This document shows positions 1 through 17,879 of a stretch of DNA of 64,000 bases, in pieces. Origin of the DNA: Candidatus Omnitrophota bacterium (lineage in GTDB: Bacteria > Omnitrophota > Gorgyraeia > Gygaellales > Profunditerraquicolaceae). The translations under genes and the position numbers were made by a program. The stretch covers positions 4,068 to 68,067 of the forward strand of contig JAZDMX010000017.1 in the NCBI GenBank assembly GCA_043800555.1, read 5' to 3'. Below the pieces are notes generated by a model, which saw only the letters and a program-made list of their open reading frames with translations, made no database searches and was not told the DNA's origin. Within the stretch, counting starts at the first letter, position 1; every line of letters begins with the position of its first letter.

Positions 1-2739
1 CGTGCCGATGCCGACTTTGGCATTGGCGTAATCGTCGGGATAAAGGTAATAATTGGGGCTGCCGGAATATGTCCAGGGCCCGCCAGTGTAGGAAATATCG
101 GTCCAGGCGCCCACTCCGTTTGCGTCTGAAACCAAAGCATAGGTATTCTGCGCTCCGGTGGGCATCTTAAAACCGGTAGCCTGGATTGTTCCCGTAACAT
201 CCAATTTCTGCGCGGGGCTGGTCGTCCCAATCCCCACATTATAGCCGGTGGAAATCGGATACAATGTGCTTCCGGATAACTTCCAATACCCCTGGGTGCT
301 GCCTCCGGAAGGGGCATAGACGCTACCGGTTACGCGGATGTCTCCGGTAACGTCAAGATCGTAAGCAGGGCTAGTGGTGCCGATGCCGACGTTGCCGCTA
401 CCAGGCCCCACAATAAGCCCGTTATTCCAGGCCCCGGAAACCTCCAGGGCTGCCAGGCCCGTAGCTGCGCCGGCGGTATTTTCGATATATATGCCGTTTT
501 CGGTCACGCCGGAGCCGGAATTCTTTAACGCAAGCATCTTCTGCGTCCCTGTTGTCGTGGAATTGGCCAGGTCCCCGGAGAATAAGCTTATATCCGTCCC
601 GATAGAGGTATCGCTAACCGTATAAGTAGAGTTAAACGGGTAATTTACGGTAAGGTAACGCTGGTTGGCAGTGCCGCCGGAAACATTCCACTGCAAAGCG
701 GCGTTTCCGGAGCCGGAATTCCTCTGAAAGACAACGGCTTTGTAAGTATCCCCTGTTTCGGTAGAGCCGATGGTCCAGGTAGGAGAAGAAGTGGAACCGG
801 TAACGACCGTGCCGGAAATATTATTGGCGTCAACCGTATCGATATAGGCGCTCTTGAAACGATACAGCGCGGTGCCCAGCGAAGCGGTGTTGGTAGTGTA
901 GGAAGTGGTCGGCCGGAATGCGCCGGTTGAATCAAAGACCACTTCGTTATTAAGCCCGGGGTTAAGGCTTAAGAGGTATTTGTTGCCCGAGCCGGCGCTG
1001 GCAGAAGCAACAGATGAAACAGACAAAACAGTATAACCTCCGGTCCCGGAAGTATTATCGGTAAGCGACAGGCTTTCGCCGGTGGTGGACTGGCTATTTC
1101 CGGCGTTGGAAGCCAAAGATTTGGAAAAGAGCGTCCCGGAAGTAAGGGAGTTGTTGGAAAGAGTCAGAGAGTTGCCCGTAGTATTAGAGGCGCTGATATT
1201 GGCTGTGCCGGTAACATCTAATTTTGCCGCAGGCCCGGTTGTTCCGATGCCGACGTTGCCCTGGATAATCGCCCCGTTTTCCGGCGCAGGCGTAGCCCCG
1301 GAATAGCTTGCGCCTACCGCTAGATTGCCCTCGACATCCAGTTTATTGGCCGGGGTAGTGGTGCCGATACCCACATTATAGCTGGTAGAAGTAGGATAAA
1401 GCGAGCTGCCGGTAAGCTTCCAGTAGCCCTGGGTGCTGCCTCCGGAAGGGGCATAGACGTTTCCGGTAGTGCGGATATCTCCGGTAACATCCAGCTCATA
1501 AGCGGGGCTAGTGGTGCCGATGCCGACGTTGCCGGCAAAATACGCCGTGCTGCCGATTCCCAAGGTCCCGGTAACTTGCAAATTATAATCCGGCGCCGTT
1601 GTCCCGATACCGACACGGGAATGCGCGGTATCTAAATCCAGCAAACCCGATTCGATATTCAAGCCGGTAACAGAGGAATCAGCCAGATTTAAGGTAGAGG
1701 CGTTAACCAGGCTTAAAACGGAGGCGTTAACCGTAACCGAGTCGGTTGAGGCATCGCCTAAAGTAGTATTGCCGTCAAGGTAAGCTGCCCCGCCGGATTC
1801 CAATACCCCGGAAACAAATAAATCGCCGTTGGCTAAGGCGTGCGCGGCGCTTGAGGAATCGCCGATTATGGTATATCCGGAAGTAGGCAGAATAGTCAGG
1901 TTTGTCCCGGATACTGTCCGGACAGTATCGGTGTAGAGGTTGCGCCAGGCGGCTGAAGCAGAGCCCAGGCTATAGGTTGAATCCTGGGAAGGAACGATAT
2001 TCCCGCCGACTATCAGGGTGCCGGAATAAGTAATCGTCCCGTCATACGACACGCTGCACCTGCTTGCTCCGCCGACTTGCAAATCCATGAGGTTGCCGGA
2101 AAAAGTGTCCGGGGCATTGAGGGCAAGGAGCGTCCCCAGGGGAGAGCCGTTAAAATGCCCTGAAGTTGAGCCGTCCCAAGCGCCGGAGCCTAAAGAAAGC
2201 AGGCCGTAATTCGCGGAGGCGTCTCCGTTATAAACCTGGAGGCGGCTTGCTCCGCCGACTTGCAAATCCAGAAGCTTATCCGCCAGGCCCGGGGCTGAAG
2301 TTTCGGTAACATCCAGCTTTAATCCAGTGTAATTGCCGGAAACGGCTTTATTGATAGTTGCCCCGAAGTTATAGGCAACTTCGTCTCCGGTAGAAGCGTT
2401 TTTGGTAACCGAGAATACTCCATTGGTAGTTATCGTATCGGAAGCGCTGTCGCCCAAAGTAACATTGCCGTTAGCGGTCAAGGCGCCGGCTACGGTGAGC
2501 AAAGAATCAAGGTAGGTAGCTCCGCTTGACTCTAAAATACCGGTGATAAATAAATCGTTCTGGGTCCTGGCATGATGGTCGGTCCCTGCGCCTACGCCTA
2601 TCTGGGTCTTTCCTCCGGAGCCGGGGGCAATGACCAGGTCTTCGTTATCGGTGGTAGTAATATCCACGGGCACGCCGTCGAATTTCAACTGGCCCGCATA
2701 AGTGAGCCCGCACAGCGCACAGTTCAATATTACCAACAT
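1..2739 (-). CDS. Giant secreted repeat protein, partial (3' end beyond the left edge). It has an N-terminal signal peptide MLVILNCALCGLTYAG and repeated GNVGIGTTSPxxxLDVTG tail-fibre-like motifs.
   Basis: Manual minus-strand translation from the ATG at 2739 stays open all the way to position 1, about 913 codons. The ORF track omits it because there is no stop in the window. Internal ~175-nt DNA repeats occur at about 225-425 and 1355-1550. Confidence 0.6.
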   Translation of the reverse strand, partial: MLVILNCALCGLTYAGQLKFDGVPVDITTTDNEDLVIAPGSGGKTQIGVGAGTDHHARTQNDLFITGILESSGATYLDSLLTVAGALTANGNVTLGDSASDTITTNGVFSVTKNASTGDEVAYNFGATINKAVSGNYTGLKLDVTETSAPGLADKLLDLQVGGASRLQVYNGDASANYGLLSLGSGAWDGSTSGHFNGSPLGTLLALNAPDTFSGNLMDLQVGGASRCSVSYDGTITYSGTLIVGGNIVPSQDSTYSLGSASAAWRNLYTDTVRTVSGTNLTILPTSGYTIIGDSSSAAHALANGDLFVSGVLESGGAAYLDGNTTLGDASTDSVTVNASVLSLVNASTLNLADSSVTGLNIESGLLDLDTAHSRVGIGTTAPDYNLQVTGTLGIGSTAYFAGNVGIGTTSPAYELDVTGDIRTTGNVYAPSGGSTQGYWKLTGSSLYPTSTSYNVGIGTTTPANKLDVEGNLAVGASYSGATPAPENGAIIQGNVGIGTTGPAAKLDVTGTANISASNTTGNSLTLSNNSLTSGTLFSKSLASNAGNSQSTTGESLSLTDNTSGTGGYTVLSVSSVASASAGSGNKYLLSLNPGLNNEVVFDSTGAFRPTTSYTTNTASLGTALYRFKSAYIDTVDANNISGTVVTGSTSSPTWTIGSTETGDTYKAVVFQRNSGSGNAALQWNVSGGTANQRYLTVNYPFNSTYTVSDTSIGTDISLFSGDLANSTTTGTQKMLALKNSGSGVTENGIYIENTAGAATGLAALEVSGAWNNGLIVGPGSGNVGIGTTSPAYDLDVTGDIRVTGSVYAPSGGSTQGYWKLSGSTLYPISTGYNVGIGTTSPAQKLDVTGTIQATGFKMPTGAQNTYALVSDANGVGAWTDISYTGGPWTYSGSPNYYLYPDDYANAKVGIGT

Positions 2740-2754
2740 CAGGAAAAGGGGGAT

Positions 2755-2900
2755 GTTTCTAAAAAAAGGGGACGCGGGAATTGGGGACGTTTCTACTTTT
2801 CCAGAGTTTAAAGCCGGAAAAGTAGAAACGTCCCCAATTCCCGTAGAAACGTCCCCCTTTTCGCAATTTCTAGAAAAGCGGAAACGTCCCTTTTTTTTCG
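2755..2900. repeat. Composite, nested copy of the palindromic REP-like element. It carries extra GGGGACG-cgggaatt units.
   Basis: Contains GGGGACGTTTCTACTTTTC ... GAAAAGTAGAAACGTCCCC plus mirrored flanks. Lies immediately upstream of the start of the giant repeat protein. Confidence 0.85.
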
Positions 2901-2940: not shown

Positions 2941-3522
2941 TCATTCCGCCCCAAACATAAACGCGGGTTCGTCGGGGATGGCTTCTTCGGAATTCTTAAA
3001 CGCCCCCCTTAAGGTAATTATTCCTCCGCCTCCTCCTAAAACTACTTCTCCGCCTTTCCTTATGTAAAGCGCCTTATCCGTAACATTATCCGGAGCAATC
3101 AATCCGTAAACGAAATTCTCGGCGGTAACCGTTGAATCCGTCCTCCCGCCGGCTGTAAGCGATTTCGCCTTAAAAACTTCAGACACTTTAGAGATAACTA
3201 CGCCGGCCCCCTGCTTGTCGACAACGGCATCATCCGATGAGCCGGGCACTCCTTTGGGGAACCAATTGCCGGCTTTATCCCAGCTTGCCGCGTCGGCCTT
3301 CCCCGACCACTGCTTCGTATCAGCCCGCGCGCCGCTACAAGAAAAAAATAGCACAAAAATGAATAAACTCAAGGAAAATATGAGAGAAAAGGGGGACGAA
3401 AAAAAGGGGGACGTTTCTACTTTTCTGGCGCTAGATTCGGGAAAAGTAGAAACGTCCCCTTTTTTCCCGTTCTCCTTTTCTCCGCTTCTCTTTTCTCTTG
3501 AGACATCCGCATTTTTCTTCAT
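2941..3522 (-). CDS. Secreted hypothetical protein. Its N-terminal region includes a translated REP-like element, followed by a hydrophobic signal-like segment.
   Basis: The 193-aa ORF has its ATG at 3522, overlapping the stop of the upstream gene in an ATGA arrangement. Hydrophobic stretch SLIFSLSLFIFVLFFSCSGARA. Confidence 0.5.
   Translation of the reverse strand: MKKNADVSREKRSGEKENGKKGDVSTFPESSARKVETSPFFSSPFSLIFSLSLFIFVLFFSCSGARADTKQWSGKADAASWDKAGNWFPKGVPGSSDDAVVDKQGAGVVISKVSEVFKAKSLTAGGRTDSTVTAENFVYGLIAPDNVTDKALYIRKGGEVVLGGGGGIITLRGAFKNSEEAIPDEPAFMFGAE
3387..3467. repeat. REP-like palindromic element, copy 2.
   Basis: GGGGGACG aaaaaaa GGGGGACGTTTCTACTTTTC tggcgctagattcgg GAAAAGTAGAAACGTCCCC with a T-run. 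Confidence 0.9.
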
Positions 3523-4832
3523 GGCCTGACAAATAGCGAAGCTCCGCCAATATCCATTTTCTTTACTTCCAAATAAACCTTGCCATCCAGAATTATTTCA
3601 CCCGAGACGTCATTAAAGCCATAATCATACAGGCCATTATACCCCAAACTCAAAAGGTTAAGGCCTAAATCAGCCGCCAGGCGCGGCCGGGCGGAAAAAA
3701 CTTTATTGCCCTCCGGGTATTCTATGGTATAAGTTTCAATAAGCGGCTGGGCCAAACCGGAAATCTTGGAAAATTGGACCTTAAGCACCCAGGAAGAGCC
3801 CCCGCTTTCGGGCTTTGCCTCCAGGATTAAAGAATCTTTATTATCAATACCGCTTAAATTGTCCAGATAGAGCGCCTTGACCTCCCTGGAATCCGGTATA
3901 GGGAACCTCGCCCCTTCCTTCAGCATAAGATTGCCCGAGCGCATCGGCGCGTTACGCAAAGCGACAAAAGTAATGCTTTGGCGCGTACTGCCGTTTTTGC
4001 TTTGCGCGGTAAAAGCGATTTCTATCGCCGTGATTACGGGTATATCGGAAGTTGCTATGGAGCCTTCCGAACCCAATTCGCTATTTGTATTGTCAAAATA
4101 ACGAAATTTAAAATCCGTGATTTTCACCCCGAAAGGATTTTTATAAACCTCTTTCGAACCGTCTTTATCGTCAATAAATACTGCTTGGGCAAGCGGGTCA
4201 TAGCGAAAAGTTACCAGGCAATCGGCGTCTTTTCCATAATCCGGATAAAAAGTAAAACGCAGGTGGCTGCCGGCAGGCACAGCCATATCCAGCTTGAATT
4301 GAGGGTAGTCTTCGGATTTTCCTTTATCGATGAAGGTGACCGGAACAACCTTGTATTCATTGGATTCGGGCAAAAGCGCCTCGGCAATCGGCAGGCTTGC
4401 GCCGGGTTTAATATGTTTATTTAAGGTATAGGTGTTGACCCCGGTATAGACGTCGTGAGTGTCGTCGGTCCAAGGCATAACCGTAACAACTTTTTCAGAA
4501 GTGCCGTCTACCACTTCCAGCGCGTCGCGAAGCCCGTAAGCGCCGGGAAGCCCTTCCACGAGTTCCTCCATAATCCGCGAAGAAGCCTGCTGCAAAAGAA
4601 GCTGATCCTGGGAAATGTCCCAACTTTCCAAGGCAGTCTTCAGGCTGAAATATAACGCGGCTGTGATTAAAGTGGAAATCGCTACGGCGATAACGAGTTC
4701 AATAAGAGTAAACCCCCTGGAAAAGGGGGACGTTCCCGCGGAAAAGGGGGACGTTTCTACTTTTCTGGCGCTAGATTCGGGAAAAGTAGAAACGTCCCCC
4801 TTTTTCAGCTCGCCTTTTCTTCTCATATCCAT
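3519..4832 (-). CDS. Large prepilin-type N-terminal cleavage/methylation domain protein. Possibly a minor pilin or tip-adhesin-like subunit.
   Basis: The motif SRG|FTLIELVIAVAISTLITAALYF is a class III signal with Glu+5. Total length 437 aa. A 40-aa leader includes the translated REP element. Confidence 0.6.
   Translation of the reverse strand: MDMRRKGELKKGDVSTFPESSARKVETSPFSAGTSPFSRGFTLIELVIAVAISTLITAALYFSLKTALESWDISQDQLLLQQASSRIMEELVEGLPGAYGLRDALEVVDGTSEKVVTVMPWTDDTHDVYTGVNTYTLNKHIKPGASLPIAEALLPESNEYKVVPVTFIDKGKSEDYPQFKLDMAVPAGSHLRFTFYPDYGKDADCLVTFRYDPLAQAVFIDDKDGSKEVYKNPFGVKITDFKFRYFDNTNSELGSEGSIATSDIPVITAIEIAFTAQSKNGSTRQSITFVALRNAPMRSGNLMLKEGARFPIPDSREVKALYLDNLSGIDNKDSLILEAKPESGGSSWVLKVQFSKISGLAQPLIETYTIEYPEGNKVFSARPRLAADLGLNLLSLGYNGLYDYGFNDVSGEIILDGKVYLEVKKMDIGGASLFVRP
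4712..4806. repeat. REP-like palindromic element, copy 3, with an extra partial left arm.
   Basis: GGGGGACGttcccgcggaaaaGGGGGACGTTTCTACTTTTC tggcgctagattcgg GAAAAGTAGAAACGTCCCCC. Confidence 0.9.
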
Positions 4833-5326
4833 ATACTGTCCTCGAACAAAGTAGCCACGGAAGCAACCGGCTTCTTAAGGTTATCGCTGCGGTAAACCTC
4901 CACCCTGACCTCCAAAGGGTCCGTATCGGCAAGAACGCGCCGCAAAACCCTCCACTTGGCCTGGTTCATTTCCAAAGGAGGCTCATCCAGTTTTGGCGTC
5001 CAGAGGTCGCCTATTTTTTTAAGGCCGGGCTTGGTAACATTCAAATTCTGGGTCCTTTCCATTTCCCAGCGCGCCAGGTTTACAGCGGTAATCTCTTCTC
5101 CTGAAACCGTAACGGAATAAAGAGCGCTTGAAAAAAGCTGTATCATCGGTATAAAGAGCACGGCGATAACGACAAGCGCGATGAGGATCTCGATAAAAGT
5201 AAATCCCCGGAAAAAAGGGGACGTTTCTACTTTTCCCGGATCTGGCGCCAGAAAAGTAGAAACGTCCCCTTTTTTCCGGGAAAAGTAGAAACGTCCCCCT
5301 TTTTCTTTTTCGATATCAAAACGCAT
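4823..5326 (-). CDS. Minor pseudopilin, GspI/J- or PilV-like, with a prepilin N-terminus.
   Basis: FRG|FTFIEILIALVVIAVLF. The leader contains a translated REP element. Confidence 0.6.
   Translation of the reverse strand: MRFDIEKEKGGRFYFSRKKGDVSTFLAPDPGKVETSPFFRGFTFIEILIALVVIAVLFIPMIQLFSSALYSVTVSGEEITAVNLARWEMERTQNLNVTKPGLKKIGDLWTPKLDEPPLEMNQAKWRVLRRVLADTDPLEVRVEVYRSDNLKKPVASVATLFEDSIWI
5211..5306. repeat. REP-like palindromic element, copy 4 (1.5 copies: one hairpin plus an extra right arm).
   Basis: GGGGACGTTTCTACTTTTC ccggatctggcgccag AAAAGTAGAAACGTCCCC ttttttccggg AAAAGTAGAAACGTCCCCC. Confidence 0.9.
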
Positions 5327-5720
5327 TATACCTCACTTGAACAGCGCGCTTGACGCCGTTACTGTTACCTATAGAAACTATTGTTGATTGCGAATAATCG
5401 TTATACACTTCAAAAACGCCTCCGTTTAATTTCGTGGGAGGGACTATCATATCAAGTTGTTCTTGTTCATCTACAGGCGCTTCCCCTGCCTGGTTCTTAA
5501 GAGCGCTGACTGCCTTGGCGATCCCGGCTTCGGCTAAATATAACGCTCTTGCCCTATCCAGCTCAATCTGGCTTAAGCTCAACACGTTAAAGAACAAAGC
5601 CATAAGGGTCGCCCCTAAAAGAGAAATCGTAAGGATCACAATCAGGACAATCAATAAAATTGCCCCTTTTTCGGCTTGCGGCTTGCGGCGTATGGTTAGC
5701 GCTAAGCGCTCCATTACCAT
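5316..5720 (-). CDS. GspK/PilX-like minor pseudopilin N-terminal domain protein.
   Basis: EKGAILLIVLIVILTISLLGATLMALF followed by ELDRARALYLAEAGI, resembling the GspK/PilX N-terminal helix. It has no Glu+5. Confidence 0.5.
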   Translation of the reverse strand: MVMERLALTIRRKPQAEKGAILLIVLIVILTISLLGATLMALFFNVLSLSQIELDRARALYLAEAGIAKAVSALKNQAGEAPVDEQEQLDMIVPPTKLNGGVFEVYNDYSQSTIVSIGNSNGVKRAVQVRYNAF

Positions 5721-6259
5721 TCAGAAGGCACCTCGCCTTTGTTTTTTCCCCACTTATCGCTCAAAGGCTCGGTTACATTCACTACCACCTTGGCTTTATC
5801 CGTATAATACGCCCAGCCTCCTGCGCCGGACAGATCCTCGTCGCTCTTAAGGTCTACAAAAGAATTGCTGCCTGCTTTGGAAGAAACCATCTCCAGGGGA
5901 AGTTTGGCTAAGTATGGCTGCTTAACGCCCATATCATCGTAGCTCCTGGTCAAGAGATCAGAAAGCGCCACGGGATATTCCCCTTCTTTGGCGCGGAACA
6001 TCGCGATGCGCGTGCGCAGCGTATTTAAATTGGTGAGTGTGGCCGAAACCTTTGCTTCCGTATCAAAACCAATGAAATTAGGAATAATAGTCGCTGCCAA
6101 TATCGCGATGATAGAAATAACAATTAGAAGCTCAAGCAAAGTGAAGCCCTTAGAAAAGGGGGACGTTTCTACTTTTCTGGCACGAGGCTTGCGAAAAGTA
6201 GAAACGTCCCCCTTTTCCGCGCCCCCTTTTTCCTTCCGGAAAGATAATGCTAACCTCAT
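5714..6259 (-). CDS. gspG: GspG/PulG-like major pseudopilin (type II secretion / type IV pilin-like).
   Basis: SKG|FTLLELLIVISIIAILAATIIPNF is a textbook GspG N-terminus. The 38-aa leader includes a translated REP element. Confidence 0.75.
   Translation of the reverse strand: MRLALSFRKEKGGAEKGDVSTFRKPRARKVETSPFSKGFTLLELLIVISIIAILAATIIPNFIGFDTEAKVSATLTNLNTLRTRIAMFRAKEGEYPVALSDLLTRSYDDMGVKQPYLAKLPLEMVSSKAGSNSFVDLKSDEDLSGAGGWAYYTDKAKVVVNVTEPLSDKWGKNKGEVPSEW
6153..6233. repeat. REP-like palindromic element, copy 5.
   Basis: GGGGGACGTTTCTACTTTTC tggcacgaggcttgc GAAAAGTAGAAACGTCCCCC. Confidence 0.9.
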
Positions 6260-9027: not shown

Positions 9028-9047
9028 ATTGGCTACTTCATCAACTT

Positions 9048-11097: not shown

Positions 11098-12160
11098 TAC
11101 CTCCGTTTATAAATTTTGTTGCCAGCCCTAAAGCCCCGGTAAAGGCTATAGAATTCTGCTGGACAACCGGGTTCAACCCGTTCTCGGAGTGAGAAACAAA
11201 AAAAGCCAAAGGATCAAAGACATTAACCGGGATTTCCAATTTGTCAGCCAGGAATTTATCCAGGTTTTTCAATGCCGCCGCCCCGCCGCACAAAATAAGG
11301 CGCTCGATTTCCGGCGCTTTAGATTTTACAAATTTATGGGAGAAATCTTTAATCGCGTGCTCAATATCAATAAGCATATTTTCCATCTGGCTGGAAAGCG
11401 CCGGGCACTCACCCAGGCCTTCCTCTATCTTTAAGGCTTCTGCCTTTTCCCAATCAAACTGATAGTATCCGGCCAAGATTCCGGTAAAACCGTTACCCGA
11501 GGCACCTAACGGCGTTATAAGATAGGGATGGCCCCCGGATACAATAATTATCGAGGAATTGCTTGCTCCTATTCGCAGCACCAAAACAGTTTCCTTTTCT
11601 GATATATTTTTAGATAAAGACAGGGCTTCAATAACTGCGTAAGGCTGGGGCTCAATAGAAACTAAATCTAAGGATAAGCCCTTAAAGAACTTGGCCATAT
11701 CCAAAACTGTTTTCTTGCTAGTTACAAATACTAAAACATAAATATCCTTATTCCCGGCCTCCTGGGGGCTGGCGCAAACATAATCAAACGATATATCATC
11801 AAATTTTACTCCCGGAGGAAGGTTCTGTTTGATTTTCCAGGTAAGGGCGGGTTCAACTTCGCCTGCGGGCATATCCGGCAAGGTATAGCTATAGGTGTTA
11901 ATCCCGCTCAACGGGATCGAAACCGCTACTTCCCCTTTGACCCGATTCTCTTTTACAAGTTTCTCCAAAGAATCTTCCGGGATAATGGAGACAGGGACGC
12001 CTTTATCGCGCCCAAGGCTGGCATAGTCAGCTTTTAGGATTTTATAACTGGATTTGAATTTGGCTAATTGCAATAGCTTAAGCGAACTTGAACCTATTTC
12101 TATTGCAGTAGGGAAATACTCCGGCTTTAATCGCAACACTCTAACCTCCTTTACGGGCAA
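11072..12160 (-). CDS. pilM: Type IV pilus assembly ATPase-fold protein PilM (actin-like).
   Basis: VLRIGASNSSIIIVSGGHPYLITPLGASG and ERLILCGGAAALKNLDKFLADKLEIPVNVFDPLAFF. Confidence 0.8.
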   Translation of the reverse strand: MPVKEVRVLRLKPEYFPTAIEIGSSSLKLLQLAKFKSSYKILKADYASLGRDKGVPVSIIPEDSLEKLVKENRVKGEVAVSIPLSGINTYSYTLPDMPAGEVEPALTWKIKQNLPPGVKFDDISFDYVCASPQEAGNKDIYVLVFVTSKKTVLDMAKFFKGLSLDLVSIEPQPYAVIEALSLSKNISEKETVLVLRIGASNSSIIIVSGGHPYLITPLGASGNGFTGILAGYYQFDWEKAEALKIEEGLGECPALSSQMENMLIDIEHAIKDFSHKFVKSKAPEIERLILCGGAAALKNLDKFLADKLEIPVNVFDPLAFFVSHSENGLNPVVQQNSIAFTGALGLATKFINGGIDFEIKAG

Positions 12161-12187: not shown

Positions 12188-12406
12188 TTATAAGTGCTGC
12201 GCAATAAGCTTGAGAGAATAACCCTCCTGGCGAAGTTTTCTTATCTTGGAAAAACTTTTGAGAATACCTGATCTGCTATACAACCTCATATTGCCTTTTC
12301 TTCCCTCGGCCCGGAACAGCCCTATGTTAGTGTAATAATTGACTGTGGCCATAGAGATCCCCAACAGGGAAGCGATCTCCTTTGGTGACAAATACTTTCC
12401 ACTCAT
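12188..12406 (-). CDS. Small MerR/excisionase-like helix-turn-helix DNA-binding protein.
   Basis: LSPKEIASLLGISMATVNYYTNIGLF is an HTH. A strong Shine-Dalgarno sequence AAGGAGG precedes the ATG. Confidence 0.5.
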   Translation of the reverse strand: MSGKYLSPKEIASLLGISMATVNYYTNIGLFRAEGRKGNMRLYSRSGILKSFSKIRKLRQEGYSLKLIAQHL

Positions 12407-12522: not shown

Positions 12523-12530
12523 AAATTGGG

Positions 12531-12620
12531 CCCGGAAAAAGGGGGACGTTTCTACTTTTCCGGCGCCAGATCCGGGAAAAGTAGAAACGTCCCCCTTTTT
12601 CCAGGCCCCTTTTTTAACCC
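12531..12620. repeat. REP-like palindromic element, copy 7, immediately 3' of the RAYT gene.
   Basis: GGGGGACGTTTCTACTTTTC cggcgccagatccgg GAAAAGTAGAAACGTCCCCC. Confidence 0.9.
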
Positions 12621-13282
12621 CTCGGCCTTCCTATTTTTTTGTTAAAGTTATTTATTTGATAGAACTCTGATAACCCGCGGACAAACGCCTCGCTGCCGAT
12701 GAAAAACTGTTTAGAAATAACCTCTGAATTCACTATGCTGCTATCTACTACAAATTCTATATATAGTTTCGCTCTAGCCTGGAGAGAGCCGGAAAGGCTG
12801 CAATACGCCGGGCTATCGGAAATTACGGCATTTGGCAAACCAAGCGCATAATAACAGTAGCTGCTGAAGCGATACCTTTCAGGCGCTTTAACCAGCCCGG
12901 ACCTTACCGGATTAAGCTCAATATACTTCCCGCATTGCAAAAGATACGAATCGGTATCAATAATATTGCTTTTATACCTGCCCTGCCAGATATGCCCGCT
13001 GTAACCATAAGTCCTTTTGTAATAATTAAAATATAAGAGATTGAGTTGTTTCATAAACTTGGGCAAGTTACTTGTAGCATCCAGCCAAACAATCAAATGG
13101 CTATGGTTACTCATGATACAATAGTGGAATATACTGATATTATTCTCTTTTCTAAGGTTTTTTAGCAGTTCCCAATAGGCATGCTTGTCTTCATCGCACC
13201 TAAAGATACACTGCTGGTTATTTCCTCTAGTCATAATATGCAAAGCCCCATTCCGGGGGATAAGCCTTCTTGTCCTGGGCAT
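12614..13282 (-). CDS. REP-associated tyrosine transposase (RAYT; IS200/IS605 TnpA-like Y1 HuH transposase).
   Basis: HuH motif CIMSNHSHLIV and catalytic-Tyr motif YIELNPVRSGLV, the RAYT signature Y..NPV.AGLV. AGGAGG Shine-Dalgarno sequence upstream. REP copies flank it on both sides. Confidence 0.8.
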   Translation of the reverse strand: MPRTRRLIPRNGALHIMTRGNNQQCIFRCDEDKHAYWELLKNLRKENNISIFHYCIMSNHSHLIVWLDATSNLPKFMKQLNLLYFNYYKRTYGYSGHIWQGRYKSNIIDTDSYLLQCGKYIELNPVRSGLVKAPERYRFSSYCYYALGLPNAVISDSPAYCSLSGSLQARAKLYIEFVVDSSIVNSEVISKQFFIGSEAFVRGLSEFYQINNFNKKIGRPRG

Positions 13283-13357: not shown

Positions 13358-13465
13358 TTGGGGACGCGAAATTGGGGACGCGAAATTGGGGACGTTTCTA
13401 CTTTTCTGGCTTTAGGTTCTAGAAAAGTAGAAACGTCCCCAATTTCGCCCAATTCCGCGTCCTAG
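13358..13465. repeat. REP-like element, copy 8. Extended form with two GGGGACG-cgaaatt units, 5' of the RAYT gene.
   Basis: GGGGACGcgaaattGGGGACGcgaaattGGGGACGTTTCTACTTTTC tggctttaggttctag AAAAGTAGAAACGTCCCC aatttcgcccaattccgCGTCC. Confidence 0.9.
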
Positions 13466-13653
13466 TGGGTAACAACGTGAAGATAGGCAGCCGGCTTATC
13501 ATCGGGCTTGGAAGTTATACAATCATCAAGCCTGAAAGTCTCGGCCTCAACCATCTTTGGCTGCAGGTTAATAAAGGTATTTATAACTAACATAATTGCG
13601 ATCAAAAATAATAGAATGTCCCTGATTTCTAATTCTCTCTTAATCATCATCAA
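13462..13653 (-). CDS. Hypothetical small membrane protein with one TM segment. Speculative.
   Basis: The 63-aa ORF contains ILLFLIAIMLVINTFINL and lies between two REP copies. There is no homology evidence. Confidence 0.2.
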   Translation of the reverse strand: MMMIKRELEIRDILLFLIAIMLVINTFINLQPKMVEAETFRLDDCITSKPDDKPAAYLHVVTH

Positions 13654-13682
13654 CCTCCTATTAAAAGAAAAGCGAAGGAGGC

Positions 13683-13752
13683 AAAAAAAGGGGACGTTTC
13701 TACTTCTCTAACAATCAAGCCCGGGAAAAGTAGGAACGTCCCCTTTTTTTGC
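13683..13752. repeat. REP-like palindromic element, copy 9 (slightly degenerate), 3' of pilB.
   Basis: GGGGACGTTTCTACTTcTC taacaatcaagcccgg GAAAAGTAGgAACGTCCCC. Confidence 0.85.
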
Positions 13753-13764
13753 CTCCCCCTTTGC

Positions 13765-15435
13765 TTATCCTTCATGGGTAACCCGCAGGACCTCGGAAAC
13801 ACTGGTAATCCCTTTAAGCAGCTTATCGATACCGTCTTCATACATTGTCTTCATTCCTTTGCGGATGGCAGCATCCCTAATTTCTCCGGCGGAAGACTTT
13901 TTCTCAATCAATCTCTTAATGTCGTCATCCGGCACGAGCATTTCAAAAATCCCTATCCTCCCCGAGTATCCGGAATTCCGGCACTCCTGGCAACCCTTTT
14001 CCCGGTAGAACCTGATAGGGCCGGGCCCTGCCTTGACACTCAACTCATCCAACAACTCCTTGGCGGGAGAATAGGCTTCTTTGCAGCGCGGGCATAATAC
14101 CCTCAACAGGCGCTGCGCGACCACGCAGATTAACGCCGAAGAAACCAAAAACGGCTCGGTCTCCATATCGATTAACCTGGTGGCTGCCGAAGGCGCATCA
14201 TTAGTATGAAGAGTGGAAAAAACCAAATGCCCGGTTAAAGCCGCATGGATGGCAATCTCGGCAGTTTCGTGGTCACGCACCTCGCCAATCATAATTACGT
14301 CGGGGTCCTGCCGGACAAGAGAACGCAGGCCCACGGCAAAAGTAAGGCCGGCCTTGACATTTACCTGCGACTGGCGCACCCGGTCGATCTCATATTCAAT
14401 CGGATCTTCCATGGTAACTATGTTTTGCTCGGTGCTATTAATATCAAGCATAACGGCATAAAGAGTGGTGCTTTTGCCGGAGCCGGTCGGCCCGGTAACC
14501 AAAATAATCCCGTGCGGCTTACGGATTATCTCCTTGAATGCCTCCAATGCCCCATCCGGCATCCCTAAATCTTTCAGCCGGATAAGCGAGCGAGTCTTAT
14601 CCAAAATCCTGATAACCAGGTTTTCGCCATACATCGTAGGAAAGGTTGAAACGCGCAAATCAACGCTCCTTCCCGCCGCAACTGTCTGAATGCGCCCATC
14701 CTGCGGAAGCCGTTTCTCTGAAATATCCATATTAGACATTATCTTGATCCGGGAAATTATTGCCGCTTCGTATCTTTTGGCAAGTTTTGGCATGTCATGA
14801 AGGACCCCGTCCATCCTGAAACGGCAATAAAAATCTTCTTTTTCGGGCTCAAGGTGTATGTCGCTTGCCCCCAATTCAACCGCCTTGGCGATTAAATTAT
14901 CCACAATGCTTACCACCGGAGCAAGGCTGGCAATCTGCACGGAATCCATACCCGTCAAATTGACAACTTCCGCCTCTTTATCCTGCCCCGCCTTAAGCGC
15001 GGAAAAACTTTCTTTACGGTATTCCCTGTTAATATTATCGAAAACTTGCGACGGCCGGGCAAAAACCAGGCGCACCGGCTCCTTAATCGCTTTGCGGATT
15101 TCATCTGTAGATTTTTCATCCAAAGGGCTGGCCAAAGCCACTGTAACAGCGGTAGCGCTCTTAAAAATCGGCAATGCCGAATATTTCCTGATTATCTCTT
15201 CGGGCAACAGCCTAATGACCGCCGGCTCTAACTTGTATCTTGACAGGTCCACGCAGGCAAAACCCAGCTGTTCGCTTAACGCCAGAGTTACCTGCTCCTC
15301 GTTAGCGTAGCCTTTTTTGATCAGGATCTCGCTTAAGCTCCTGCCGGAACTCTCTTGCTCTGCCAAAGCTTCATCAAGCTGGCTGCTTGTGGTGATATTT
15401 TTGGTAACTAATAATTCGCCCATCCTTTTCGTCAT
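13765..15435 (-). CDS. pilB: Type IV pilus / type II secretion assembly ATPase of the GspE/PilB family.
   Basis: N-terminal GspE_N-like domain. Walker A motif GPTGSGKSTT, and a C-terminal tetracysteine CPRC...CQEC. Confidence 0.9.
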   Translation of the reverse strand: MTKRMGELLVTKNITTSSQLDEALAEQESSGRSLSEILIKKGYANEEQVTLALSEQLGFACVDLSRYKLEPAVIRLLPEEIIRKYSALPIFKSATAVTVALASPLDEKSTDEIRKAIKEPVRLVFARPSQVFDNINREYRKESFSALKAGQDKEAEVVNLTGMDSVQIASLAPVVSIVDNLIAKAVELGASDIHLEPEKEDFYCRFRMDGVLHDMPKLAKRYEAAIISRIKIMSNMDISEKRLPQDGRIQTVAAGRSVDLRVSTFPTMYGENLVIRILDKTRSLIRLKDLGMPDGALEAFKEIIRKPHGIILVTGPTGSGKSTTLYAVMLDINSTEQNIVTMEDPIEYEIDRVRQSQVNVKAGLTFAVGLRSLVRQDPDVIMIGEVRDHETAEIAIHAALTGHLVFSTLHTNDAPSAATRLIDMETEPFLVSSALICVVAQRLLRVLCPRCKEAYSPAKELLDELSVKAGPGPIRFYREKGCQECRNSGYSGRIGIFEMLVPDDDIKRLIEKKSSAGEIRDAAIRKGMKTMYEDGIDKLLKGITSVSEVLRVTHEG

Positions 15436-15454
15436 TATATTTTTACCCCCCAGA

Positions 15455-15530
15455 AAAACGGGGAAATCGGGGACGTTTCTACTTTTCGGGGCCCGAAAGC
15501 CGGAAAAAGTAGAAACGTCCCCGATTTCTC
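15455..15530. repeat. REP-like palindromic element, copy 10.
   Basis: GGGGACGTTTCTACTTTT cggggcccgaaagccgg AAAAAGTAGAAACGTCCCC. Confidence 0.9.
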
Positions 15531-15533
15531 TCT

Positions 15534-17879
15534 CTATTTATTCTTCAATTCTCTCCACATAAGCTGATTAATGCCTGTCTTACCTGCCCTGCCAAAAGTG
15601 ATTGCCCCTTTTCTGGTTTTTATCTTATACGATGACGACACCAGGATAGTAACCGTTTCCGCCTCTGAATCGGTTACGGAAAGCGTGATCTTTCCATTGG
15701 TGAATCTGGCGGAAGTAGCTGCCAGCGAAGCGCTGCCGTTATCCGAATCCTCAACCGCCTCTACATTTACCGTCAGGCCGCTCTCCGAAGTAATGACGTT
15801 GCCTTCATCATCCACTATCTGGATAGTGACCTCGCCGGTCCCGACAGGCGAGGTAGTGTCAATTACTTCGATAGTGGCGTTTTTCACCGTAATTTTGGAC
15901 GACTCAACGCTCAAAGAGCCTTTTTGAGACTGGGCAACCACGGTATAACTGCCTGCCTGAGCTGGAACAGCTGAAAATGTATGCGCGCCCGCATCTGCGC
16001 CGGTAAAAGTGTACGGCCCCGGCAGGGCCAATCCAATACCCGAGGACAATTCAACAGCTCCGGGGTAATTCGGTATGGGTCCCCCCAGCGCGTCTAAAAC
16101 TTTCACCACCATCTCAATCGGCTCGCCGATATAGAAGAAATCTCGCTCACTGTTGGCGGGAATTACGCTGATTGACATACTCTTGGGTAAAAATACGATG
16201 TCGGGGCTAATCCCGGATTTTGCCGGATCAACCGAATCTTCGGCCTTAAGTTTTATCGTGCCGTAAAGATTATAAGATACATCTGCTTTGGCAATTCCGC
16301 TAAGGAAACTGCTTGCCGCTATCACGGAAGGAGAAAACGATGCCTTAGGAATACTAAGAGGCGTAACCGCTAACGGCAATAAATTAACAGCGCTATTATA
16401 ATTCGGGGTTATTAAGCCCGCGGCATTTAAAGCGGTAACGCTAACCTTAAATGGATTTGAAACAATTTGCGGGCTCTCGGCCGAAACAATAAAGCTTGCC
16501 GGCAGGAATAAAATCTGGCTGCTTGCGCCTGTTTGATCCGAATCTTCGCTATCGGTTGCCGTAATCGTAACCAGGCCGCAATCAGGATATTTCGCCGTGG
16601 TAACCTTAAGGACGCCCTTGACGAAACCCGACACGTTATCAGGCAATATGGGAAAACTACCCTTAGCCGGAGAAATATAATCTAGCGACAGGTTCACGGC
16701 GCCGCCGTAAGATTCATCGGTATTGGCCTTCTCATCCTTGGCGGTAATTATTATATCAAAACTTTGGCCGGCGACCTGCGGCGTAGCGGCTTCAACGGCA
16801 AAACGCGCAAACTTATTCACTATCTCAAATTCCTGCAGGGCGTCGAGATAACCCCGGTCCGGATACTCCCTTACGTTAATTACGGGCCTGCCGGAAGCGG
16901 TATCTTTATAATAAAAGGTTACCTGTTGGGCTGATTTCGGAATAATAATCTGCTCTTGGCTTACCCAGGGGTCCTTATTCAGAGAAAAACTTCCGCTAGT
17001 GGAAGTAGATTTTAGCTCTAAAGTTATATCTGTCGCCGCTGTCTGGGGCGCGGAATCGGAATCCTGCAGTTGAAGGACAATCGGCCCCGAAACCTGGCCC
17101 TGCATTAACTTCTGGGGCGCGCTAATTATCTGCAAACGGTAAATGTAGCTGACTTCTATATCGTCGACATAAGCATTACTCTGCCCGGAAGCCGAATAAG
17201 TGCCGTAAAACTTAAGGTCGCTTAAAGAATTTATGGTATTATCGATAAATCCCAGGTTGGTTTCCAGCGGGCTAAACCCTATATCCGAATTGGGATCGAC
17301 AAAATAAAGATCGTAGGTATGGTTAATGAAATCGAGTTTCATGGACACATCGTACCACTGCCCGGTTACATAGGTAGCTCCGGTATCCACCCAGGAGGAG
17401 CCGTCAGCAACCAGGACATTGCCGGTGAAATCAAAACAAACAGCCCCGACTCCGGATGAGGGCACGCTGGGGGTTTGATTGGAAATCGAAGGACGGATTT
17501 TAAAACGAATCCAGGTAGGCGTATGCCCGCCATATGCAAAAGGCCGGTCCACCACGGGAACGTTGAGCGCCCCAATGAGCTCCACTGAATTGCCTGTTCC
17601 GCCGGGAGTTACTTTAGACTGCGCGATCGCGTTATTTTCCGAACCGCTAAAAACATTCCAGTAATCTGTGCCGTCAATGGTTGCCCCGTCGATAAAATTG
17701 CTGAAATCCTGGAAATATGTGTCAAGGGTAGCTGACTGCGGCAAGCCGCAAAAAGCCTCCGGCGCCCCGCATATTAAGAAAAATATAATAAGTATTGCGC
17801 GGGATAAAAAAAAGGGGGACGTTTCTACTTTTCTGGAAGCTAAAGCCGGAAAAGTAGAAACGTCCCCCTTTTTTCTCAT
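15534..17879 (-). CDS. Large secreted surface protein with a lectin/LamG-like N-terminal region and Ig-like repeats. Its N-terminus is encoded by a REP element, followed by a signal peptide.
   Basis: The 781-aa protein starts MRKKGDVSTF...KVETSPFF, the REP translation, followed by LSRAILIIFFLICGAPEAFC. The sequence is rich in T/S/V/G beta-strand repeats. Confidence 0.55.
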   Translation of the reverse strand: MRKKGDVSTFPALASRKVETSPFFLSRAILIIFFLICGAPEAFCGLPQSATLDTYFQDFSNFIDGATIDGTDYWNVFSGSENNAIAQSKVTPGGTGNSVELIGALNVPVVDRPFAYGGHTPTWIRFKIRPSISNQTPSVPSSGVGAVCFDFTGNVLVADGSSWVDTGATYVTGQWYDVSMKLDFINHTYDLYFVDPNSDIGFSPLETNLGFIDNTINSLSDLKFYGTYSASGQSNAYVDDIEVSYIYRLQIISAPQKLMQGQVSGPIVLQLQDSDSAPQTAATDITLELKSTSTSGSFSLNKDPWVSQEQIIIPKSAQQVTFYYKDTASGRPVINVREYPDRGYLDALQEFEIVNKFARFAVEAATPQVAGQSFDIIITAKDEKANTDESYGGAVNLSLDYISPAKGSFPILPDNVSGFVKGVLKVTTAKYPDCGLVTITATDSEDSDQTGASSQILFLPASFIVSAESPQIVSNPFKVSVTALNAAGLITPNYNSAVNLLPLAVTPLSIPKASFSPSVIAASSFLSGIAKADVSYNLYGTIKLKAEDSVDPAKSGISPDIVFLPKSMSISVIPANSERDFFYIGEPIEMVVKVLDALGGPIPNYPGAVELSSGIGLALPGPYTFTGADAGAHTFSAVPAQAGSYTVVAQSQKGSLSVESSKITVKNATIEVIDTTSPVGTGEVTIQIVDDEGNVITSESGLTVNVEAVEDSDNGSASLAATSARFTNGKITLSVTDSEAETVTILVSSSYKIKTRKGAITFGRAGKTGINQLMWRELKNK
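17806..17876. repeat. REP-like palindromic element, copy 11. It overlaps the start of the 15534..17879 gene.
   Basis: GGGGGACGTTTCTACTTTTC tggaagctaaagccg GAAAAGTAGAAACGTCCCCC. Confidence 0.9.

What the first reader, a model, noticed from the sequence alone, without database searches (positions are those of the whole stretch)
2739..17879. Hybrid T2SS/T4aP-like operon interrupted by a RAYT and a MerR-like gene
On the minus strand the gene order is: an Ig-like surface protein, gspE/pilB, a small ORF, the RAYT, a merR-like HTH gene, pilM, pilN, pilO-pilP, a frameshifted secretin, gspF/pilC, gspG, a gspK-like gene, a gspI/J-like gene, a large prepilin-like protein, a secreted protein and the giant repeat protein. 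The locus combines T4aP-type alignment genes (PilMNOP) with T2SS-type pseudopilins (GspG, GspK). No PilT retraction ATPase is present in the window. The mobile RAYT sits between the ATPase and the alignment genes.
Basis: inference. Interest (0 to 1): 0.5.

Follow-up and report, generated by a model that had tools for sequence, protein, structure and literature searches.

The report
Omnitrophota secretion/pilus operon colonised by palindromic repeats
This is the type II secretion-like pilus operon that Omnitrophota bacteria keep next to their giant surface-protein genes; it is already described, but this copy is unusual because a small mobile hairpin repeat and its transposase have spread through it and are read in frame inside several genes.

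Summary
On the minus strand it runs: Ig-like protein, GspE/PilB ATPase, small ORF, RAYT, MerR-like HTH, PilM, PilN, PilO-like, split secretin, GspF, four pilin-like genes, a secreted protein, then a giant protein. The operon is not a one-off hybrid. The same order occurs in other Candidatus Omnitrophota genomes and has been published as a conserved T2SS-like locus upstream of giant genes. Curated models give mixed T2SS and T4aP signals, all below family cut-offs.

Only the RAYT is an insertion. The MerR-like gene has a 60% identical ortholog directly upstream of pilM in a relative, so it is native. The secretin split comes from one missing G.

A 53-nt hairpin repeat (REPIN; arm GGGGACGTTTCTACTTTTC) occurs 16 times in the window, 11 of them in this locus. 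Two copies flank the RAYT. Eight copies lie inside coding sequence, all in one reading frame: three prepilin leaders, three signal-peptide N-regions, the GspF linker and a membrane-protein loop. Other Omnitrophota lineages carry different repeats at some of the same gene junctions.

Verdict: a known kind of system with an interesting repeat overlay. Interest is moderate.

The parts
15534..17879 (-). 781-aa Ig-like surface protein (DUF6701/Big_1). Its ATG overlaps the upstream stop codon (ATGA). A REPIN at 17815-17867 lies in frame in the signal-peptide N-region.
   Evidence: Pfam; codon view; orthologs in L001-3 and L013.
15469..15522 (.). Intergenic REPIN hairpin between the Ig-like gene and the ATPase gene.
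13765..15435 (-). Assembly ATPase (GspE/PilB type) with an N-terminal MshEN c-di-GMP-binding motif.
   Evidence: Pfam T2SSE 444 bits and MshEN. NCBIfam GspE 588 (cut-off 630), PilB 561 (cut-off 676), c-di-GMP motif 54 (cut-off 38). Best PDB matches PilF/PilB.
13690..13743 (.). Intergenic REPIN hairpin. It creates the spurious ORF 13650-13841.
13462..13653 (-). Conserved small membrane-protein gene (63 aa).
   Evidence: 56% identical to the 60-aa gene after gspE in L001-3.
13388..13440 (.). REPIN flanking the RAYT on its upstream side.
   Evidence: -62 kcal/mol
12614..13282 (-). RAYT-like Y1 (HUH) transposase, 222 aa. It is a lineage-specific insertion.
   Evidence: Pfam Y1_Tnp 52 bits. NCBIfam REP_Tyr_transpos 66 bits, below the cut-off of 80. 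Absent from L001-3 at this site. 43 homologs, many flanked by related hairpins.
12542..12594 (.). REPIN flanking the RAYT on its downstream side.
   Evidence: -70 kcal/mol
12188..12406 (-). 72-aa MerR-type HTH protein. It is a native first gene or regulator of the pilM block.
   Evidence: Pfam MerR_1. 60% identical ortholog directly upstream of pilM in L015.
11072..12160 (-). PilM-like actin-fold protein.
   Evidence: Pfam PilM_2 81 bits; TIGR01175 95 bits, below the cut-off of 133.
10453..11097 (-). PilN-like protein.
   Evidence: Pfam PilN
9560..10456 (-). PilO/GspM-like protein with an extra C-terminal domain. PilP identity is not shown.
   Evidence: Pfam PilO 30 bits, with weak T2SSM, T2SSB and CdsD_C. 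PDB PilO E=0.036.
7495..9521 (-). Secretin (N0/STN, N1, secretin pore, TPR/coiled-coil tail). It is split by a 1-nt deletion at about 9072/9071.
   Evidence: Relatives have intact genes of 591-1132 aa.
6264..7508 (-). GspF/PilC platform protein. A variant REPIN at 7318-7370 lies in frame in the linker after the N-terminal domain.
   Evidence: Pfam T2SSF; GspF 393 bits, cut-off 424. The linker is 10 aa longer than in L001 (alignment), and the gspF orthologs called in the other relatives are 404-408 aa against 414 here. Arm sequences.
5714..6259 (-). Major pseudopilin (GspG-like). The REPIN at 6159-6211 is in frame and gives a 38-aa leader.
   Evidence: There is an AGGAGG SD, the ATG lies 4 nt after the gspF stop, and there is no start codon between the repeat and KG|FTLLE.
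5316..5720 (-). 134-aa pilin-like protein without a GFxxxE motif (GspK/PilX-like N-terminus). No repeat.
   Evidence: No Pfam or NCBIfam hit. Conserved in all relatives.
4823..5326 (-). Minor pseudopilin (167 aa). Its leader holds the REPIN 5217-5269 plus a solo arm at 5280-5298.
3519..4832 (-). Large minor pseudopilin (437 aa). Its leader holds the REPIN 4747-4799 plus a partial arm.
   Evidence: The L005 ortholog leader is MDMRRG|F.
2941..3522 (-). Conserved secreted 193-aa protein. The REPIN 3407-3459 lies before the hydrophobic core of its signal peptide.
1..2922 (-). N-terminal part (at least 974 aa) of a giant repeat protein that runs off the window. A compound REPIN at 2783-2835 lies before the signal-peptide core.
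   Evidence: The ortholog runs past the locus end at 4483 aa or more in L001.
21901..21953 (.). REPIN of the same family, outside the finding. It lies in frame in a cytoplasmic loop of a 562-aa PMT_2/TPR membrane protein.

Best explanation
The locus is the type IV filament operon that Omnitrophota keep next to their giant surface-protein genes.

Machine (inferred from the known roles of the families):
- A GspE/PilB-type ATPase, probably c-di-GMP responsive through its MshEN motif, drives a GspF platform held by PilM/PilN/PilO-like alignment proteins.
- This machine polymerises a highly conserved GspG-like major pseudopilin, primed by three or four minor pilins, under a secretin.
- The most likely function is to export or display the adjacent 193-aa protein and the giant protein, as in a T2SS-like mode. 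No retraction ATPase is encoded in the locus.

Repeat overlay in this genome (shown unless marked otherwise):
- A REPIN/RAYT system has colonised the operon. The single RAYT gene, flanked by two REPINs, sits in the spacer upstream of the native MerR-like gene.
- 53-nt hairpins of the same family occupy gene junctions.
- Inferred: copies survived only where they are harmless. These places are intergenic spacers and, always in one open reading frame, cytoplasmic Lys-rich segments.
- Inferred: several of those segments are cut off on maturation (prepilin leaders and signal-peptide N-regions). The others are loops (the GspF linker and a membrane-protein loop).
- So the repeats are translated as 'KKGDVSTF..KVETSPFF'.

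The secretin frameshift is a single-base loss. It is either a MAG consensus error or a very recent mutation.
For: Gene content.

Synteny: the same order, with 40-88% identical proteins, in L001-3, L004-5 and L013-15. It is published as a conserved T2SS-like locus upstream of giant genes.

Major pilin: the mature part is 53-86% identical across 28 aligned Omnitrophota orthologs.

MerR ortholog.

REPIN family:
- 16 hairpins, most with perfect 19-nt arms.
- Folding energy -45 to -70 kcal/mol, z-score -7 to -11.
- Two copies flank the RAYT.
- 11 of 16 lie in 24% of the window (P = 1.7e-4).

RAYT homologs: found in 43 genomes, mostly Omnitrophota. 12 of the 24 inspected are flanked by related GGGGACG[GT]TTCTAT hairpins.

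In-frame status:
- The prepilin ATGs sit at or beside the upstream stop codon, each with an SD. No ATG, GTG or TTG lies between the repeat and the G-1 cleavage site.
- Orthologs have short leaders without the repeat.
- The GspF and PMT_2 copies are internal to conserved coding sequence.
- All 8 coding copies use the same frame (P about 0.004-0.008 against the two open frames).

Remnants and parallels:
- Repeat-arm remnants 'ETSPFF' sit in the same leaders of the 86% relative L004.
- Unrelated repeats occupy the same pilin leader in L059, L060 and L061, and in L059 also the N-terminus of the secreted-protein ortholog and other gene junctions.
Against: - No expression data. Translation through hairpins of -45 to -70 kcal/mol that start 1-30 nt after the start codon is unproven.
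- For the three signal-peptide proteins, a downstream ATG or TTG start cannot be excluded.
- The secretin is frameshifted and a GH1 gene in the window is also split. Some decay, or poor consensus quality, is therefore possible.
- Neither the substrate nor the T2SS-like mode is shown. Closest solved ATPases are PilF/PilB, and Seymour et al. report type-4a pilus clusters in nearly all Omnitrophota.
- The RAYT scores below NCBIfam's RAYT cut-off.
- The genome-wide behaviour of the repeat could not be examined.
Confidence: 0.7

Rival explanations
1. The locus builds a true type IVa-like adhesive or retractile pilus used to attach to host or prey cells. PilT and PilD are encoded elsewhere, and the giant protein is merely a neighbour.
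For: PilM/N/O-type alignment proteins. The secretin N0 domain scores PilQ above GspD. The closest solved ATPases are PilF/PilB. Seymour et al. report type-4a pilus clusters in nearly all Omnitrophota, with T4aP expressed in V. archaeovorus. PilT-independent retraction is known.
Against: The ATPase, platform protein and secretin pore score higher with T2SS models. There is no PilT in the window. The locus is tightly and widely linked to a secreted protein and a giant gene. The major pilin is short and carries sources' T2SS/GspG annotations.
Confidence: 0.25
2. The operon is decaying in this genome. The secretin is truly broken, and the repeat invasion reflects relaxed selection, so the repeat-bearing ORFs are pseudogenes.
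For: The secretin is frameshifted at a non-homopolymer site. A second gene in the window (GH1) is split. Very stable hairpins sit just after the start codons.
Against: Every other gene is full length and 40-88% identical to relatives, with no internal stops. All eight intragenic repeats keep the frame, and none uses the frame that contains TAG. The GspF copy keeps a perfect stem through three compensatory changes. Near-identical contigs of a relative also differ by a secretin frameshift, which points to assembly noise.
Confidence: 0.12
3. The repeats are ordinary extragenic REPs. The N-terminal ORF extensions are gene-calling artefacts, and real starts lie downstream.
For: This is the usual explanation for REPs at ORF 5' ends (Di Nocera 2013). 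Downstream ATG or TTG codons exist for the giant and 193-aa proteins. In L060 a GTG after the hairpin could serve as the start.
Against: It is impossible for the three prepilins, which have no start codon before the G-1 cleavage site. It is also impossible for GspF and the PMT_2 protein, where the repeat lies between conserved domains.
Confidence: 0.05

Closest known systems
Conserved T2SS-like locus upstream of Omnitrophota giant genes (West-Roberts et al. 2023, bioRxiv 10.1101/2023.11.21.568195). Seymour et al. 2023 (PMC10066038) report 'type-4a pilus' clusters in nearly all Omnitrophota; that these are the same clusters is my inference.
   Same: More than 10 genes, including gspD/E/F homologs and several class III signal-peptide genes, lie directly before a giant ORF. 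Synteny with other Omnitrophota genomes was shown here.
   Different: This copy carries a RAYT, 11 REPINs and a frameshifted secretin. No rcpC or Rotamase_2 gene was seen in the part covered by the window.
Canonical proteobacterial T2SS (GspC-O)
   Same: It has a GspE/F/D/G-type core and minor pseudopilins, one of them without Glu5. There is no retraction ATPase in the locus, and a candidate substrate is encoded next door.
   Different: There is no GspC or GspL. Separate PilM and PilN are present instead. All equivalog scores are below cut-off. The secretin has a PilQ-like N0 domain and a long TPR/coiled-coil tail.
Type IVa pilus machinery (PilMNOPQ, PilBCD, PilT)
   Same: It has PilM, PilN, a PilO-like protein and a secretin in the same order. 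The ATPase is full length with an MshEN domain and is closest to solved PilF/PilB structures.
   Different: There is no PilP hit, and PilT, PilD and PilA-type pilins were not found in the window. PilB, PilC and PilQ models score lower than the Gsp models.
REPIN/RAYT systems (Nunvar 2010; Bertels & Rainey 2011; GTAG REPs of Di Nocera 2013, PMC3733652)
   Same: A single Y1/HUH transposase gene is flanked by the same hairpin repeat that is dispersed in the genome. The arms contain GTAG. Related RAYTs in other genomes have related repeats.
   Different: The host is Omnitrophota. Half of the copies in the window are intragenic and in frame. The RAYT scores below NCBIfam's RAYT cut-off.
Rickettsia palindromic elements (RPE) and other intragenic REP dimers (cited in PMC3733652)
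   Same: Palindromic repeats are inserted in frame into conserved protein-coding genes. They add 20-35 residues at permissive sites and are absent from orthologs.
   Different: Here they concentrate in cleavable prepilin leaders and signal-peptide N-regions of one secretion operon. An associated RAYT lies inside the same operon.

Membership tests
Canonical T2SS | GspE, GspF, GspD and GspG reach the equivalog score | tested here: not met
   GspE 588 bits (cut-off 630). GspF 393 (cut-off 424). GspD 207 (cut-off 351, tested on the C-terminal ORF only). GspG 46 (cut-off 89). All. These are the best-scoring families but all fall below the cut-off.
Canonical T2SS | GspC and GspL/GspM assembly proteins | tested here: not met
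   No GspC or GspL hit. PilM_2 and PilN are present instead. GspM scores only 32 bits (cut-off 60) and T2SSM is below the Pfam cut-off.
Canonical T2SS | Prepilin peptidase GspO/PilD | not testable with these tools
   None among the window ORFs of 150 aa or more. The gene is often a loner elsewhere in the genome, and the rest of the genome is not available.
Type IVa pilus | PilB, PilC and PilQ reach the family score | tested here: not met
   PilB 561 bits (cut-off 676). PilC 333 (cut-off 700). PilQ 169 for the C-terminal part and 57 for the N-terminal part (cut-off 284)..
Type IVa pilus | PilM-PilN-PilO-PilP alignment complex | tested here: inconclusive
   Pfam PilM_2, PilN and PilO pass their cut-offs. 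TIGR pilM scores 95, below the cut-off of 133. There is no PilP hit. The C-terminal domain of the 298-aa protein is unassigned.
Type IVa pilus | Retraction ATPase PilT | tested here: not met
   tblastn of the ATPase against the window finds only itself. The rest of the genome was not examined.
Omnitrophota T2SS-like locus next to giant genes | Conserved multi-gene secretion locus with gspD/E/F and class III signal-peptide genes directly upstream of a giant ORF | tested here: met
   The gene order pilM-pilN-pilO-secretin-gspF-pilins-secreted protein-large ORF is shared with L001-3 and L013-15.
RAYT/REPIN system | Y1 (HUH) transposase domain | tested here: met
   Pfam Y1_Tnp 52 bits (cut-off 23). 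An HSH motif and a KYIELNPV tyrosine motif are visible in the sequence.
RAYT/REPIN system | Reaches the NCBIfam REP_Tyr_transpos equivalog cut-off | tested here: not met
   66 bits, below the cut-off of 80.
RAYT/REPIN system | The gene is flanked by the same palindromic repeat that is dispersed in the genome, and the transposase is single copy | tested here: met
   REPINs at 12542-12594 and 13388-13440 flank the gene. 14 further copies lie in the window. There is only one RAYT in the window. Homologs elsewhere are flanked by related hairpins. Copy number in the whole genome was not tested.
RAYT/REPIN system | The RAYT cleaves or mobilises the REP (activity) | not testable with these tools
   This needs biochemistry or comparison of populations.
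In-frame intragenic palindromic elements (RPE-like) | The repeat lies inside a conserved ORF, keeps the frame and is absent from orthologs | tested here: met
   The GspF linker, three prepilin leaders and the PMT_2/TPR protein. For the PMT_2/TPR protein, absence from orthologs was not tested. Translation itself was not tested.
MerR-family regulator | N-terminal MerR HTH plus a C-terminal dimerisation/effector region | tested here: inconclusive
   MerR_1 HTH scores 38.6 bits (cut-off 21.6). The protein is only 72 aa and no effector domain was detected. HspR and SoxR models score far below their cut-offs.

The most novel reading that the evidence does not exclude
Short palindromic repeats embedded in frame in the cleavable leader-coding 5' ends of the pseudopilin and secreted-protein genes may not be passive passengers. 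They may be a recurrent, selected feature of Omnitrophota T2SS-like operons. Unrelated repeat families occupy the same pilin leader in at least four lineages (window, L059, L060, L061), and in L059 other gene junctions as well. On this reading the hairpins act as intercistronic RNA structures that enforce translational coupling, or set segment-specific mRNA stability and so subunit stoichiometry. The prepilin peptidase or signal peptidase then removes the encoded peptide.
Probability: 0.15. Interest if true: 0.6.

Novelty: new member of a known kind. Interest (0 to 1): 0.38.

Why it matters
The operon matters because it is the conserved secretion or pilus machine that sits next to the giant genes of Omnitrophota. 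It is the best candidate for exporting or presenting those proteins, and its nature (T2SS or T4P) is still undecided in the literature.

The repeat overlay gives a clear natural example of REPINs translated inside genes. It shows which positions of a type IV filament machine tolerate 20-35 extra residues: prepilin leaders, signal-peptide N-regions and the GspF linker.

It also extends RAYT/REPIN systems to an uncultivated phylum. If the hairpins turn out to be functional, this would be a new way of tuning expression within a secretion operon.

On the practical side, gene callers and annotators will mis-handle these 5' ends.

Tried and rejected
- Exact-sequence look-ups of the window's ATPase and pilin found no record, so the source contig could not be extended.
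- The full palindrome was absent from the GTDB species representatives and from viral contigs.
- The 19-nt arm gave only 7 loci in JGI metagenomes, two of them with variant hairpins. A genome-wide or population census of the repeat was therefore impossible.
- A protein search with the repeat-encoded peptide failed, first because the query was too short and then with no significant hit.
- The AlphaFold2 model of the major pilin had a mean pLDDT of 57.7. No fold search was run, and the GspG versus PilA fold question stays open.
- The RAYT has no detectable PDB relative by sequence.
- The consensus terminator scan does not flag the REPINs because their loops exceed its limit. Its count equals the shuffled expectation.
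- Rfam finds no known RNA in the locus.
- I considered that 'KKGDVSTF..KVETSPFF' is a genuine protein sorting motif. I rejected this because the DNA is a perfect palindrome, the same element occurs in non-coding spacers, and orthologs lack it.
- I considered that the MerR gene arrived together with the RAYT. I rejected this because of the L015 ortholog.
- I considered that the copy-specific outer stems are inverted target duplications. They look more like sub-families of the repeat.
Full report
**Observation**

Pfam assigns most of them:
- 15534-17879: 781-aa DUF6701/Big_1 protein.
- 13765-15435: T2SSE + MshEN ATPase.
- 12614-13282: Y1_Tnp transposase.
- 12188-12406: 72-aa MerR_1 HTH protein.
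- 11072-12160: PilM_2.
- 10453-11097: PilN.
- 9560-10456: PilO-like protein with an unassigned C-terminal domain.
- 9048-9521 plus 7495-9027: a secretin split into an STN/N0 ORF and a Secretin ORF.
- 6264-7508: T2SSF.
- 5714-6259, 4823-5326 and 3519-4832: N_methyl prepilins.
- 5316-5720 and 2941-3522: two ORFs without hits.

A large ORF starts at 2922 and runs off the window. No second GspE/PilT-type ATPase and no prepilin peptidase is present in the 64 kb.

**Organism and conservation**

The exact 181-aa pilin is on record from a Candidatus Omnitrophota MAG. It has hundreds of Omnitrophota homologs, which sources name 'type II secretion system protein' or 'general secretion pathway protein G'.

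Contigs of relatives show the same order:
- L001-L003 run Ig/DUF6701, ATPase, 60-aa gene, pilM, pilN, pilO, an intact secretin (L002 and L003), gspF, pilin, three further pilin-like genes, a secreted protein, then a giant ORF. The giant ORF runs past the locus end at 4483 aa or more in L001.
- L013, L014 and L015 keep the pilM-to-large-ORF block with different upstream genes.

West-Roberts et al. describe this as a conserved T2SS-like locus preceding Omnitrophota giant genes. A 2026 preprint finds secretion or pilus genes next to 13 of 14 giants. Seymour et al. report type-4a pilus clusters in nearly all Omnitrophota; that these include this locus is my inference. The operon is therefore a known, phylum-wide feature.

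**T2SS or T4P?**

Curated NCBIfam models give mixed signals, all below their cut-offs:

| Component | T2SS model (bits / cut-off) | T4aP model (bits / cut-off) |
|---|---|---|
| ATPase | GspE 588 / 630 | PilB 561 / 676 |
| Platform | GspF 393 / 424 | PilC 333 / 700 |
| Secretin pore | GspD 207 / 351 | PilQ 169 / 284 |
| Secretin N0 | GspD 27 / 351 | PilQ 57 / 284 |
| Major pilin | GspG 46 / 89 | (Myxococcus PilA model) 49 / 400 |

- Among solved structures the ATPase is closest to Thermus PilF and Geobacter/Myxococcus PilB, ahead of Vibrio GspE.
- GspC and GspL are absent, and separate PilM and PilN are present.
- Denise et al. already describe chimeric or 'generic' type IV filament systems of this sort, and frequent loss of PilT.

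'Hybrid' is therefore a fair label for the scores, but it does not single out this window. I favour a T2SS-like export or display role. The reasons are the lack of a retraction ATPase in the locus and the invariable linkage to a secreted protein plus a giant gene. This is inference, and an adhesive pilus remains a serious rival.

**RAYT and MerR**

- The relatives L001-L003 lack both genes between the small conserved gene (13462-13653, 56% identical) and pilM.
- L015 has a 77-aa MerR_1 gene, 60% identical to the window's, directly upstream of pilM. The HTH gene is therefore native to the pilM block in part of the phylum.
- Only the RAYT, with its two flanking hairpins, is an insertion.
- The RAYT has a Y1_Tnp domain with an HSH motif and a KYIELNPV motif. 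It scores 66 bits against NCBIfam's RAYT model (cut-off 80).
- It has 43 relatives of up to 61% identity, mostly in Omnitrophota MAGs.
- Of the 24 relatives inspected, 12 are flanked by hairpins whose arms are variants of the same sequence, GGGGACG[GT]TTCTAT.

**The repeat**

The window holds 16 hairpins:
- Each has two 19-nt arms (GGGGACGTTTCTACTTTTC and its complement, which contains GTAG) around a loop of 14-16 nt.
- Twelve of the 16 have two perfect consensus arms. A thirteenth, the gspF copy, has a perfect stem of variant sequence.
- 5-13 further copy-specific base pairs usually extend the stem.
- As RNA they fold at -45 to -70 kcal/mol, with z-scores of -7 to -11.
- Eleven lie in the finding's 15 kb (P = 1.7e-4).

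Eight copies are non-coding. Two of these flank the RAYT, one lies on each side of the ATPase gene, and four lie elsewhere. The other eight are inside ORFs.

**Are the intragenic copies really coding?**

The three prepilins:
- Each ATG is where operon architecture puts it. For the 181-aa pilin it lies 4 nt after the gspF stop, behind AGGAGG. For the other two it overlaps the upstream stop codon.
- No ATG, GTG or TTG lies between the repeat and the (K/R)G|F(T)xxE cleavage site.
- Orthologs have short leaders without the repeat: MKFSKG|F, MRSRG|F, MDMRRG|F in L005 and MKMKKG|F in L001.

The internal copies:
- In GspF the repeat lies between the conserved N-terminal domain and the first T2SSF domain. 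It makes the linker 10 aa longer than in L001. Its arms carry three compensatory double changes, so the 19-bp stem is still perfect.
- In a 562-aa PMT_2/TPR membrane protein outside the finding, the repeat sits in a Lys-rich loop between hydrophobic segments.

The signal-peptide proteins:
- In the 781-aa, 193-aa and giant proteins the repeat lies between a well-placed ATG and the hydrophobic core of the signal peptide.
- For the 193-aa and giant proteins a downstream start cannot be excluded.

The reading frame:
- All eight copies are read in the same frame (KKGDVSTF ... KVETSPFF).
- Of the three frames, one contains TAG and two are open.
- Eight of eight in one frame has P about 0.004-0.008.

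All eight sites are cytoplasmic, basic segments just before a hydrophobic helix. Six of them are removed by the prepilin peptidase or a signal peptidase. This explains why the insertions are tolerated (inference).

**History and recurrence**

- The 86% identical relative L004 has no full repeat. It does have arm remnants (AAACGTCCCCATTTTTC, read as ETSPFF) in the same two prepilin leaders, and arm fragments in the ortholog of the 193-aa gene. The 84% relative L005 has none.
- Of 114 orthologous pilins in which the cleavage motif was found, 37 have predicted leaders of 20 aa or more.
- At the DNA level, three further lineages carry unrelated repeats in the pilin leader. L059 has the families TTCAGCGT and CAATAACCAAAC. 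L060 has a CACAAAGTCAC hairpin. L061 has an ACGGGGTACGGG hairpin with no alternative start.
- In L059 the repeats also occupy the leader of the 193-aa ortholog and the other gene junctions of the operon.
- The 5' ends of these cistrons are thus a recurrent home for short repeats in Omnitrophota. I cannot tell whether this reflects a permissive site, a target preference for A-run/T-run junctions, or a function in translational coupling or mRNA stability.

**Secretin**

Alignment with four intact orthologs places the lesion exactly. Relatives read ...AQNL(V/L)RKV(L/I)S.KGDIKVDE. The window reads cgc aag tcc tct cga where cgc aag Gtc ctc tcg is expected, so one G is missing at 9072/9071. The rest of the protein is 65-69% identical without stops.

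A GH1 gene in the window is also split. Near-identical contigs of a relative differ by a secretin frameshift. A consensus error is therefore at least as likely as a real mutation.

**Comparison with known systems**

- As a machine, the locus works like a T2SS or T4aP, but it fails the curated membership tests of both.
- It is a member of the Omnitrophota T2SS-like locus class.
- The repeat system meets the structural definition of a REPIN/RAYT system.
- Its intragenic, in-frame copies resemble Rickettsia RPEs and the intragenic REP dimers catalogued by Di Nocera et al. Those authors also warn that many 5'-terminal REPs are not coding. That caveat was addressed above.

**Verdict**

The 'hybrid' reading is partly supported but describes a known, conserved system. 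The MerR gene is native and the RAYT is an insertion. The real peculiarity is the REPIN population translated inside leaders and loops.

- Novelty: a new member of known kinds.
- Interest: 0.38.
- Most novel open reading: the leader-embedded hairpins are functional intercistronic elements. Probability about 0.15, interest about 0.6 if true.

Noticed in passing
window 45768-45849 (-), upstream of ORF 45224-45724: A c-di-GMP-I-GGC riboswitch (62 bits, gathering score 59) precedes a 166-aa ORF that has an internal Met followed by a signal peptide and no Pfam hit. Together with the items below, this suggests c-di-GMP control of surface functions in this genome.
   Followed up: partly
window 19261-20838 (-) and 13765-15435 (-): A REC-GGDEF-HD(-GYP-type) protein is encoded about 1.4 kb upstream of the locus. 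The ATPase N-terminus passes NCBIfam's MshE-related c-di-GMP-binding motif (54 bits, cut-off 38).
   Followed up: partly
window 21901-21953, inside ORF 20925-22613 (-): The same REPIN lies in frame (VSKKGDVSTFPELGARKVETSPFFVL) in a loop of a 562-aa PMT_2 glycosyltransferase-like/TPR membrane protein. This is outside the secretion locus.
   Followed up: partly
window 52084-52611 and 51320-52069 (-): A glycosyl hydrolase family 1 gene is split into N- and C-terminal ORFs. This is a second broken gene in the window, so sequence quality or pseudogenisation is an issue beyond the secretin.
   Followed up: no
window 7318-7370: The REPIN inside gspF differs from the consensus at three positions in each arm, and the changes are exactly complementary. 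The stem stays perfect. This could be a diverged sub-family or arm-to-arm correction.
   Followed up: partly
L001 2499-2566 (spacer between the 60-aa gene and pilM): The relative without the RAYT carries a different perfect hairpin (26-nt arms, TAATTCCGGGGACACAATACTTAATT) in the spacer where the window has the RAYT insertion.
   Followed up: no
L001, L002 and L003 secretin genes: Three contigs that share the identical 163-aa pilin and the same gene order, from different samples, call the secretin as 865+220 aa (split), 1132 aa and 756 aa. The locus coordinates shift by about 1.1 kb, so part of this gene varies in length.
   Followed up: no
L059 989-1100, 1601-1650, 2121-2194, 2717-2750, 4103-4568, 5054-5087: In another Omnitrophota lineage, two unrelated short repeat families (TTCAGCGT and CAATAACCAAAC) fill almost every gene junction of the same pseudopilin operon. 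They are read in the predicted leaders of the pilin and of the 193-aa ortholog.
   Followed up: partly
window 13650-13841 (-): A 63-aa ORF that overlaps the ATPase 3' end is created by a REPIN read in another frame. It has no counterpart in relatives and is probably not a gene.
   Followed up: yes
window 17876-18950 (-): A TPR protein (211 aa) and a 123-aa secreted protein precede the Ig-like gene. In L013 the TPR protein/116-aa/Ig-like gene order recurs downstream of the large ORF (the 123-aa and Ig-like proteins matched by tblastn, the TPR gene by Pfam only). They may belong to the system.
   Followed up: partly
window 25863-25936, 32804-32876, 46238-46309 (-): Three tRNA genes found by Rfam. 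The REPIN at 33020-33073 lies about 150 nt from one of them.
   Followed up: no
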